Positions 37,670-38,171 of a stretch of 64,000 bases of DNA are shown here, piece by piece. Positions within the stretch are counted from its first letter, which is position 1. Every line of letters starts with the position of its first letter. The notes under the pieces were generated by a model, which was given only the letters and a program-made list of their open reading frames with translations, was not told where the DNA came from and searched no databases. Origin of the DNA: Candidatus Poribacteria bacterium (GTDB lineage Bacteria > Poribacteria > WGA-4E > WGA-3G); the NCBI GenBank assembly GCA_963665235.2, contig CAXXLX010000001.1:2336001-2400000 (forward strand), read 5' to 3'. A program made the position numbers and the translations under genes.

Positions 37670-38100
37670 GTGATAGCACCCACTACCTAAAGGCAGGGGC
37701 TTTGGCTTCATAGACGTTTGCGTTCTTCCCGAAGGTTGAACGTCCGAGGTCCCACCGAGGACATCCTTTTATATCGTCTCTACCCGTAGGCGATTCCCCG
37801 CAGATGTAACCCCTTTTATAGATGAAACCTCTTTGGGCATATCAGGGCGGAATGTTCCTGTCTATCCCCACCTACCTTTTTTCTCACATCGTCGCATGCT
37901 AGCTCTGATTCCACACGTTTTACAGCCGCCCTTCCTACCAGGCACGCCGACATGACAAGTCCTGAAACTTGGGAGTTCTGAACCCACTACGTTTTATTTT
38001 GAATGGACGCTCTCCATCAACATTGCTGTTGCGCGGTGCGGTTTTTACACCTGTTGACACCGATGGGCAGTCTGTGTTACCCTTGCACATTGTGAAAGTC
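37670..38100 (-). ncRNA. Putative large structured RNA ending in an omega/reRNA-like 3' module
   Basis: Minus-strand cUUCGg hairpin (37721-37742), GCAA GNRA hairpin (38018-38031), long-range helix 38065-38075 with 37922-37931; no credible ORF. Confidence 0.55.
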
Positions 38101-38171
38101 GTTTTTCTGATTACACCCTTCGCCGCTTACATCACCAAGCTGAAGCATGGAGAAACTTTAGCGGAAGAGTG
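37670..38171 (-). mobile_element. Non-autonomous IS200/IS605-type element (PATE-like, 502 bp) with no transposase or nuclease ORF
   Basis: On the minus strand: TTAC flank, then left end CACTCTTCCGCT-AAAG-..CCATGCTTCAGCTTGG..AGCGGCGAAGGGTG; right end ATGAAGCCAAAG-CCCCTGCCTTTAGGTAGTGGG-TGCTATCAC resembles the right end at 43063. Confidence 0.82.

What the first reader, a model, noticed from the sequence alone, without database searches (positions are those of the whole stretch)
37670..38171. Protein-free IS605-ended mobile element carrying a large structured ncRNA and an orphan omega-RNA-like tail
Seen (minus strand): a 502-bp unit sits between aapM and the repeat genes. The left end is preceded by TTAC and contains AAAG before a subterminal hairpin, all closed by a long CACTCTT-CCGCT/AGCGG-AAGGGTG stem. 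The right end GTCTATGAAGCCAAAGCCCCTGCCTTTAGGTAGTGGGTGCTATCAC has the same CTTTAG-loop hairpin and TATCAC terminus as the tnpB element 5 kb away. The interior has no credible ORF and no recognisable tnpA/tnpB remnant. It does have strand-specific RNA signatures: a cUUCGg hairpin (37721-37742), a GCAA tetraloop (38018-38031) and a long-range helix (38065-38075 with 37922-37931). A competing CCGCCCT/AGGGCGG pairing (37844-37850 with 37926-37932) could form a switch or pseudoknot. Established: AAAG/TTAC is the IS608 guide/target pair, and TnpB reRNAs end at the right-end TCAM with the flank acting as guide. Inference: Y1 transposases mobilise this element in trans, and its cargo is a functional RNA of about 300 nt (ribozyme, scaffold or regulator) fused to an omega-RNA. 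That omega-RNA could load TnpB in trans with guide AATAGGTTAATAGTTAGCAA. Blocks GTAACACAG.CTGC, AAACGTAGT and GGTGGGG..AGACAG seem familiar from similar non-coding units in unrelated phyla, but this is unverified recall. Caveat: the right-end guide reads AAAG rather than the GAAG expected for TCAC.
Basis: partly seen in the sequence, partly recalled or inferred. Interest (0 to 1): 0.88.

Follow-up and report, generated by a model that had tools for sequence, protein, structure and literature searches.

The report
Protein-free IS605 transposon carrying guide RNA
This 502-base stretch is a gene-less miniature IS200/IS605 transposon whose whole interior is one conserved folded RNA ending in a TnpB guide-RNA scaffold, a known kind of element that here carries an undescribed 5' RNA domain.

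Summary
Window 38171-37670 (minus strand) is a protein-free IS200/IS605-type element (a PATE). It lies 3' of TTTAC, has left- and right-end hairpins, and ends in TATCAC. It is a diverged, rearranged member of a family: 33 distinct copies of 392-530 nt, found in 23 of 176 genomes of the phylum searched, all in one family whose named records are Candidatus Poribacteria. No copy carries tnpB.

The last ~125 nt match the tnpB 3' end plus right end of tnpB-bearing elements in the same genome, so this part is a TnpB omega-RNA scaffold. The ~215 nt upstream occur only in the protein-free elements. They are at least as conserved as the transposon ends. Their helices are strongly supported by compensatory changes: 21 of 53 pairs, against 7.1 in shuffles.

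No Rfam family, ORF or tnpB remnant was detected.

Most likely Y1 TnpA mobilises the element in trans, and it supplies a long guide RNA to TnpB made elsewhere. The role of the 5' domain is open. Transcription is not shown. PATEs encoding omega-RNAs are already published, so this is a new variant of a known kind.

The parts
38172..38176 (-). Transposon-adjacent motif TTTAC, directly 5' of the left end
   Evidence: Read. Two solo left ends, 92% identical to this one, also follow TTTAC. Other family copies follow TTAAC in 22 of 33.
38114..38171 (-). Left end: long imperfect stem (positions 1-12 with 45-58) enclosing a subterminal hairpin
   Evidence: Pairing read. Homologous to left ends of tnpB- and tnpA-bearing elements. 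The left-end stems covary in the family (columns 17-19 with 53-55 and 27-29 with 45-47).
38091..38113 (-). Variable linker. It resembles the -35 part of the promoter found in tnpB-bearing copies but has no -10 box
   Evidence: Compared by eye with the C2:528790 element. No promoter-like site on the minus strand in 37300-38700. Linker columns are the least conserved in the family: mean 0.52, 0 of 17 columns at 0.9 or above.
37884..38090 (-). Conserved 5' RNA domain. Starts at the invariant ATGTG. Helices H1 38082-38065, H1b ~38063-38034, H2 38017-38003, H4 37986-37970, H5 ~37969-37957, and H6 37955-37952 with 37887-37884 enclosing H7 37948-37924 and H8 37917-37895. This copy lacks H3.
   Evidence: Alignment A1, RNAalifold, pair counts, conservation profile. 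In the own genome it is found only in this element and at C1:1424948-1425477.
37745..37877 (-). Copy-specific extension inside helix H9. It is 81% identical to another protein-free element (G000 C1:1653796-1653985) and absent from most family members. It holds a 25-31-nt hairpin unit (37767-37740) that interrupts the conserved omega core.
   Evidence: The hairpin unit recurs in 17 other places in the genome.
37670..37791 (-). Omega-RNA core plus right end: GTAGAG..GACG core, variable hairpin with cUUCGg loop (37742-37721), right-end guide tetranucleotide AAAG (37703-37700), right-end hairpin 37699-37679, tail ending TATCAC
   Evidence: Homologous to the 3' ends of tnpB-bearing elements, where it overlaps the last tnpB codons. 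The covariance model R1 matches those ends at 48 bits.
37650..37669 (-). Flank that would serve as the guide if the RNA runs past the right end as in known omega-RNAs. It lies in the 5' leader of the downstream permease gene (likely start near 37616).
   Evidence: Position only. Inference from the published TnpB mechanism. Not tested.

Best explanation
The unit is a non-autonomous, protein-free IS200/IS605 element (a PATE). It belongs to a lineage-restricted family whose whole interior is one structured RNA of about 350 nt (about 420 nt in this copy, because of inserts).

Shown:
- It has IS605-type ends and sits 3' of a TTTAC/TTAAC motif.
- The family has many copies at different sites and none carries a gene.
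- The last ~125 nt are homologous to the tnpB 3' end and right end of tnpB-bearing elements.
- The upstream ~215 nt form helices kept by compensatory changes on this strand.

Inferred:
- A Y1 TnpA made by autonomous relatives excises and inserts it as single-stranded DNA.
- It is transcribed by read-through from the upstream genes, since it has no promoter of its own.
- TnpB made by other elements binds the 3' scaffold, uses the adjacent flank as guide, and cuts empty TAM-plus-guide sites so that recombination restores the element.
- The 5' domain is most likely part of a long omega-RNA that stands in for the mRNA portion of tnpB-bearing copies, with a role in folding, stability, 5' processing or control of TnpB. 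That role is not established.
- This particular copy is a recombinant. It has a left end of the TTTAC subtype and a 3' part of the TATCAC subtype, two inserts, and a mismatched right-end guide. It may no longer be mobile.
For: Ends and TAM.

Family: the nhmmer profile finds 2 full members in the own genome and 33 distinct full-length copies in all loci held. Every copy has its left end directly upstream and none has tnpB. 32 distinct 16-nt 3' flanks among the 33 copies; two copies in one genome differ at 3 of 430 positions but sit at different sites.

Omega homology: tnpB-bearing copies match profile positions 289/299-422 only. In C2:528790 that stretch spans the last tnpB codons and the right end. 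Model R1 hits these 3' ends at 48 bits with a stem equivalent to H6.

Structure: 72 predicted pairs, 30 with compensatory changes. For the 53 interior pairs, 98.9% of cells are paired and 21 pairs changed on both sides, against 7.1 +/- 2.0 in shuffles (0 of 500) and 1-3 in slid controls. By my sum of that table, 85 of 931 cells are G-U, and three pairs are G-U in 16-18 of 18 sequences. The fold therefore belongs to this strand.

Conservation: interior mean 0.857 (133 of 227 columns at 0.9 or above), linker 0.52, part shared with tnpB copies 0.805.

Trans factors: 44 PF07282 matches (43 over the cut-off) and 18 Y1 matches, 8 of them near full length, in the genome. Autonomous tnpA+tnpB elements have a similar left end and a TATCAC right end.

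Literature: PATEs 'often encode omega-RNAs' acted on in trans by TnpB (10.1101/2023.03.14.532601, passages). Processed omega-RNAs range from 79 to 466 nt (PMC10278001, section 13).
Against: - No second copy of this exact 502-nt unit, and no empty site. No contig joined 37669 to 38172 in the 4 runs laid.
- Transcription is not shown. Only contigs were available. One RNA-library run holds a related copy of the 5' domain and a high summed depth over the right end, but DNA carry-over cannot be excluded.
- The 5' domain has no detectable sequence similarity to tnpB 3' coding regions: local-alignment z between -1.4 and +3.3 over 25 comparisons, 1 of 25 beating all 200 shuffles. 'It replaces the mRNA part' is therefore an argument from position and topology only.
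- In ISDra2 the scaffold TnpB needs is 116 nt and the 5' part is dispensable (PMC10097598, passages). That leaves the strong conservation of the 5' domain unexplained.
- The right-end guide AAAG does not match TCAC under the IS608 rule (rule recalled), and a hairpin insert splits the omega core. This copy may be inactive.
- Covariation was counted on 18 of the 33 copies, with a structure predicted from the same alignment, and mobile-element copies are related.
Confidence: 0.72

Rival explanations
1. One reading: the 5' ~215 nt are an independent functional RNA (ribozyme, scaffold or regulator) that rides in the element as cargo and is merely fused to an omega-RNA.
For: The domain is found only in protein-free elements and is absent from tnpB-bearing copies. 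It is more conserved than the omega core. It has many invariant loop sequences next to covarying stems. No similarity to tnpB coding DNA. The TnpB scaffold needed in ISDra2 is only 116 nt.
Against: It is never seen without the omega core and ends (33 of 33 copies). No Rfam family, ribozyme classes included, matches at E<=10. It has no promoter or terminator of its own. A second family of protein-free elements in the same genome carries a different 5' part at the same place, which fits a generic 5' extension of guide RNAs.
Confidence: 0.17
2. A decaying deletion derivative with no RNA function. The interior is leftover tnpB or untranslated sequence, and its conservation only reflects recent spread of copies.
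For: A reading frame through H7-H9 stays open for about 50 codons in several copies and runs in frame into the conserved tnpB C-terminal codons. The topology of H6 enclosing two hairpins is also seen in the tnpB 3' coding region. Copies of a mobile element share recent ancestry.
Against: The frame is broken by 1-nt indels in other copies, and no ORF is conserved. Compensatory changes far exceed the controls. The linker next to the domain varies freely while the domain does not. This copy and L038 are about 72% identical over the shared interior stretch yet keep the helices.
Confidence: 0.06
3. The conserved fold acts in the single-stranded DNA transposition intermediate, for example by shaping excision or integration, and not in RNA.
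For: IS200/IS605 elements move as single strands and use DNA hairpins at their ends (established knowledge, recalled). The folded strand is the same strand as the end hairpins.
Against: Three pairs are G-U in 16-18 of 18 sequences, and about 9% of paired cells are G-U. That is typical of RNA and weak in DNA. Known TnpA requirements concern only the ends.
Confidence: 0.03
4. An IStron-like element: the 5' domain is a self-splicing or self-cleaving RNA that removes the insert from host transcripts.
For: IStrons have the same layout, with a structured RNA at the left and an omega-RNA at the right, and protein-free versions exist (10.1101/2023.11.20.567912, passages). Most copies sit close to, and co-oriented with, flanking genes: upstream 22 of 30, downstream 24 of 29 (crude ORF calls).
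Against: No group I intron or other ribozyme family in Rfam 15 at E<=10. The flank ends in C, not the U usual before a group I 5' splice site (rule recalled). Copies are intergenic, so no coding frame needs restoring. The replication-linked insertion orientation of this IS family could give the same co-orientation.
Confidence: 0.02

Closest known systems
Palindrome-associated transposable elements (PATEs) of IS200/IS605, as described for Geobacillus stearothermophilus (Meers et al., 10.1101/2023.03.14.532601)
   Same: No protein-coding gene. Left and right ends like those of tnpA/tnpB-bearing elements in the same genome. Carries an omega-RNA region that would need TnpB in trans. Multi-copy.
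   Different: Here the interior upstream of the omega core is a ~215-nt conserved, covarying domain not present in the tnpB-bearing relatives. The family is restricted to one family of Candidatus Poribacteria.
TnpB omega-RNA / reRNA (ISDra2 structure, PMC10097598; survey of 59 orthologs, PMC10278001)
   Same: The 3' ~125 nt overlap the tnpB C-terminal codons in coding relatives. They end with a subterminal hairpin within 10 nt of the element end. The total length of ~350 nt lies within the published 79-466 nt range.
   Different: No tnpB in cis. The 5' part is strongly conserved, whereas in ISDra2 it is dispensable. Binding, processing and guide use are untested.
IStrons (group I intron plus IS605/IS607 with TnpB; 10.1101/2023.11.20.567912)
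   Same: Structured RNA on the left-end side and an omega-RNA on the right-end side within IS ends. Protein-free derivatives exist.
   Different: No group I intron signature in Rfam searches. Intergenic sites. No evidence of splicing.
HEARO RNA (RF02033, the IscB omega-RNA) and IS605-orfB-I (RF03065)
   Same: Large structured RNAs tied to IS200/IS605 nuclease genes. HEARO copies often stand without an ORF (recalled).
   Different: Neither model matches at E<=10 (both are in Rfam 15 according to PMC11701678). HEARO carries its guide at the 5' end (recalled); here the guide would be at the 3' end.

Membership tests
IS200/IS605-type PATE | Subterminal imperfect palindromes at both ends, no terminal inverted repeats | tested here: met
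   Hairpins read. End stems covary in the family. The two ends differ in sequence.
IS200/IS605-type PATE | Insertion 3' of a short specific motif, without target duplication | tested here: met
   TTTAC here; TTAAC in 22 of 33 family copies. The flanks read show no duplication.
IS200/IS605-type PATE | No protein-coding gene | tested here: met
IS200/IS605-type PATE | Ends shared with tnpA/tnpB-bearing elements of the same genome | tested here: met
IS200/IS605-type PATE | Mobility: copies at different sites, or empty sites | tested here: inconclusive
   Family: 32 distinct flanks among 33 copies, and two near-identical copies (3 of 430 differences) at different sites in one genome. This copy: single, no empty site seen in 4 runs, mismatched right-end guide.
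TnpB omega-RNA | Sequence and structure homology to the 3' end of a tnpB gene plus right end | tested here: met
   nhmmer positions 289/299-422 match tnpB-bearing copies. R1 scores 48 bits, E about 1e-8. ORF overlap shown.
TnpB omega-RNA | Transcribed, with the 3' end extending into the flank as guide | tested here: inconclusive
   Only contigs were available. An RNA-library run holds related sequence, but ends and strand cannot be read.
TnpB omega-RNA | Bound and used by TnpB for DNA cleavage | not testable with these tools
   Needs pull-down and interference assays.
Group I intron / IStron | Group I catalytic core | tested here: not met
   No Rfam match at E<=10 in this copy or in 8 loci holding family members.
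HEARO (RF02033) / IS605-orfB-I (RF03065) | Match to the family covariance model | tested here: not met
   Presence of both models in Rfam 15.

The most novel reading that the evidence does not exclude
The 5' domain is a new class of structured RNA that evolved only in guide-RNA-only transposons. It would be a dedicated 'guide RNA gene' module with a function of its own, such as controlling when TnpB is loaded or active, acting as a processing ribozyme, or recruiting another factor, rather than a passive extension of the omega-RNA.
Probability: 0.2. Interest if true: 0.7.

Novelty: new variant of a known kind. Interest (0 to 1): 0.45.

Why it matters
Protein-free IS605 derivatives that keep a guide RNA show that the guide and the nuclease of TnpB systems can live on separate mobile elements. 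That separation is a step toward the arrangement seen in CRISPR.

This family adds a large 5' RNA domain with strong comparative support, no counterpart in the tnpB-bearing relatives and no Rfam family. If the domain affects loading, processing or activity of TnpB, it would be a natural example of guide-RNA-level control and a source of design ideas for compact editors. If it does nothing, it is a well-documented but ordinary PATE family in sponge-associated bacteria.

Tried and rejected
1. Rfam at gathering thresholds on the whole window, at E<=10 on 37500-38350 and on 8 loci with family members. Only noise in the elements.

2. tblastx of the unit against the own genome. Only nucleotide-level repeats, no tnpA or tnpB remnant.

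3. Local alignment of the interior (5 members) against 330 nt of tnpB 3' coding sequence (5 genes), 200 mononucleotide shuffles each. 24 of 25 comparisons were unremarkable. One (L034 vs C1:332366) gave z 3.3. Descent from tnpB coding DNA is not shown.

4. By-eye resemblances between H2/H3/H8 and the zinc-finger codons of tnpB were dropped for that reason.

5. ORF from the invariant ATG: lengths 1-117 aa across 18 members. Minus-strand frames are not shared.

7. A pseudoknot like that of ISDra2 was looked for by eye. None was consistent across members.

8. Metagenome pattern scan: only 2 loci, both family members. No tnpB-linked master copy found.

9. Co-occurrence with the 383-aa TnpB: 21 of 22 module-bearing relatives have it, but so do 98 of 111 relatives, so this is uninformative.

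10. Read laying: contigs only. Parts without cover and depth ratios are not used as evidence. No joint across the whole element was listed.

11. Single-sequence folding z-scores are not significant.

12. An empty-site search with the two flanks joined was not done, because a joined sequence may not be typed.

14. Supplements of the cited papers were not seen. Extended data on PATE omega-RNAs in Meers et al. may hold comparable cases.

15. Searches for prior description: 'Poribacteria'+'TnpB' returned 0 papers. 'Poribacteria-1'/'IS605-orfB' returned only the Rfam 15 papers. In the search for Poribacteria with IS605/IS200/noncoding RNA, none of the 8 listed papers holds 'Poribacteria'.

Full report
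**What is there**

On the minus strand, 38171-37670 starts directly after TTTAC. It opens with a long imperfect stem around a subterminal hairpin. It closes with a hairpin whose loop is TTTA, followed by ...TATCAC. The tnpB gene 5 kb away (43079-44383; Pfam OrfB_IS605 and Cas12f1-like_TNB) is followed by the same type of hairpin and the same TATCAC terminus at 43063.

The unit lies inside an amino-acid ABC transporter gene row, all on the minus strand:
- binding protein 40643-41659
- permease 39306-40487
- two repeat-rich ORFs
- this unit
- permease 36368 to about 37616
- ATPase 35548-36309

The unit has no promoter-like or terminator-like site on its own strand.

**Not coding, not a known RNA family**
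- Five interior ORFs of 40-68 aa have no Pfam match at E<=1.
- tblastx against the whole genome finds only nucleotide-level repeats.
- Rfam 15 finds nothing at gathering thresholds and only a 13-bit chance hit at E<=10.
- Rfam 15 contains HEARO (RF02033) and IS605-orfB-I (RF03065) (PMC11701678, passages), so their absence here is informative.

**A family, not a singleton**

In the own genome (5.3 Mb, 4 contigs) there is no second copy of the whole 502 nt. Its parts recur, however:
- the right end in more than a dozen places
- the left end in two places
- element positions 295-502 at 81% identity in another protein-free element
- positions 210-282 at 93% identity at C1:1425222

Three right-end matches lie directly behind tnpB genes.

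In relatives of the same family, the interior (positions 82-295) is present in several copies per genome. A profile built from ten such copies finds two full members in the own genome: this unit and C1:1424948-1425477.

Over all loci fetched there are 33 distinct full-length copies of 392-530 nt. Every one has its left end directly upstream of the interior, and none has tnpB. The 33 copies have 32 distinct 3' flanks. Two copies in one genome differ at 3 of 430 positions but sit at different sites. The family has therefore moved recently, and it must have done so with a transposase supplied in trans.

**Distribution**

A 241-nt query of the interior matched 23 of 176 genomes searched in the phylum. 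All are in the window's own family: own genus, one genus 13 of 40, another 9 of 65. There were 0 matches in 65 genomes of ten other families. At most 4 candidates per genome were scored, so copy numbers are lower bounds.

A 21-nt degenerate motif from helix H7 was scanned over 185,579 species genomes and returned 25 loci. Of these:
- 16 are real family members, all titled Candidatus Poribacteria. Several are letter-identical to loci of the unnamed relatives.
- 9, from other phyla, carry only the motif. 3 of the 9 gave short nhmmer matches of 27-42 nt at E 0.0002-0.03.

A longer motif found 2 loci in the metagenome collection, both real members.

**Which part is the omega-RNA**

The tnpB-bearing elements of this genome match the family profile only at the left end and at positions 289/299-422. 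In the element at C2:528790-530266 this stretch begins in the last tnpB codons (...NIKRAGLAALSGDDIRR...) and runs to the right end.

That is the position of a TnpB omega-RNA scaffold. In ISDra2 the functional scaffold is 116 nt and the 5' part is dispensable (PMC10097598, passages).

I built a covariance model of H6-H9. It used 13 of the 18 aligned copies; I dropped the four with inserts and one near-duplicate. It matches the tnpB 3' ends at 48 bits, with a four-pair stem in the place of H6 enclosing two short hairpins. Most of the score comes from H9 and the sequence after it.

Upstream of H9 there is no significant sequence similarity to tnpB coding DNA.

**The 5' domain**

Between an invariant ATGTG and H9 lie about 215 nt that occur only in the protein-free elements.

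RNAalifold on 18 copies predicts 72 pairs, 30 of them with compensatory changes. For the 53 interior pairs:

| Measure | Observed | Controls |
|---|---|---|
| Cells paired | 98.9% | 31-45% when partners are slid by 1-3 columns |
| Pairs changed on both sides | 21 | 7.1 +/- 2.0 in shuffles (0 of 500 reach 21); 1-3 when slid |

By my sum of the table, 85 of 931 paired cells are G-U. Three pairs are G-U in 16-18 of 18 sequences. The fold therefore belongs to this strand, which is the strand of the omega-RNA.

Caveats: the structure was predicted from the same alignment, copies are related, and 15 later-found copies were not included.

Across all 33 copies:

| Region | Mean identity to consensus | Columns at 0.9 or above |
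|---|---|---|
| Interior | 0.857 | 133 of 227 |
| Linker next to the left end | 0.52 | 0 of 17 |
| Part shared with tnpB copies | 0.805 | 60 of 126 |

No ORF is conserved. A frame that runs into the tnpB C-terminal codons is open in some copies but is broken by single-base indels in others.

**This copy in particular**

This copy scores lowest of the 33 against the profile.
- Its left end belongs to a TTTAC subtype, 92% identical to two solo left ends.
- It lacks helix H3, as does L038 from another genus.
- H9 is expanded by about 130 nt shared with other protein-free elements.
- A 25-31-nt hairpin unit found in 17 other places in the genome splits the omega core.
- At the foot of the right-end hairpin it has AAAG. 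6 of the 8 other TATCAC-ended copies listed in this genome have GAAG, and the 6 TATGAC-ended copies have CAAG. Under the IS608 guide rule (recalled, not checked in a paper) this is a mismatch, so the copy may be immobile.

- The cUUCGg hairpin sits where every member has a hairpin of variable sequence.
- The GCAA hairpin is not conserved.
- The long-range helix lacks covariation.

**Expression**

Only assembled contigs could be laid.
- Two runs hold the exact sequence in pieces.
- One RNA-library run has a 312-nt contig over 37880-38045 with 13 differences and 4 gaps, which is a related copy. It also has a very high summed depth over the right end.
- This is at most a weak hint, since DNA can be present in such libraries and contigs show no ends or strand.
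- No contig joined the two flanks.

Family copies tend to be co-oriented with the nearest long ORF: upstream 22 of 30, downstream 24 of 29 (crude ORF calling). That would allow read-through transcription, but it could also follow from the replication-linked insertion bias of this IS family (recalled).

**Comparison with what is known**

Meers et al. state that PATEs often encode omega-RNAs that must be used in trans by TnpB from other elements (10.1101/2023.03.14.532601, passages). Nety et al. report processed omega-RNAs of 79-466 nt, and an mRNA region that inhibits cleavage (PMC10278001, abstract and sections 12-13). IStrons place a group I intron at the left and an omega-RNA at the right, and have protein-free derivatives (10.1101/2023.11.20.567912, passages).

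The element is therefore a member of a known kind. What is new is a lineage-specific family whose guide RNA carries a large, strongly constrained 5' domain of unknown role. No paper in the searched library links Poribacteria and TnpB.

**Verdict**

It is a new variant of a known kind, of moderate interest.

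Noticed in passing
window 37740-37767 (minus); G000 C1:892734-893214 and 17 other places: A 25-31-nt hairpin unit occurs inside at least three other repeat families and in one or two apparently coding contexts. In one protein-free element it is expanded into about 17 tandem 18-nt units.
   Followed up: partly
G000 C1:851208-851603, C1:494615-495010, C1:1263167-1263558, C1:101951-102775: A second family of protein-free IS605-type elements. It has the same ends and omega core, its own TTGAC-type -35 box and extended -10 promoter, and a different ~180-nt structured 5' part. 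The last copy also holds about nine tandem 37-nt repeats.
   Followed up: partly
G000 C1:326985-327032 and C1:2193166-2193224: Solo left ends of the TTTAC subtype, 92% identical to this element's left end. One is followed by a promoter-like box, and neither has a matching right end nearby.
   Followed up: partly
window 43063-44520 (minus): The tnpB element near the finding has its TAG stop codon in the loop of the right-end hairpin. It is preceded by a C-terminal remnant of a Y1 tnpA. Further Y1 fragments lie about 1 kb upstream, so its transposase gene is broken.
   Followed up: partly
window 38250-39195 (minus): Two ORFs rich in AEGRAEGKAQG-type repeats (weak Yae1_N matches) sit together with the element between the two permease genes of an ABC transporter row that is normally contiguous.
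   Followed up: no
G000 C1:1424948-1425477: The other family member in this genome carries two copies of a ~27-nt GC-rich hairpin insert in the loops of two helices, and an expanded H9.
   Followed up: no
window 59242-59331 (+): A selenocysteine tRNA: Rfam tRNA-Sec, 78 bits.
   Followed up: no
window 41782-43035 (minus): A 417-aa ORF directly downstream of the tnpB element has no Pfam family above threshold.
   Followed up: no
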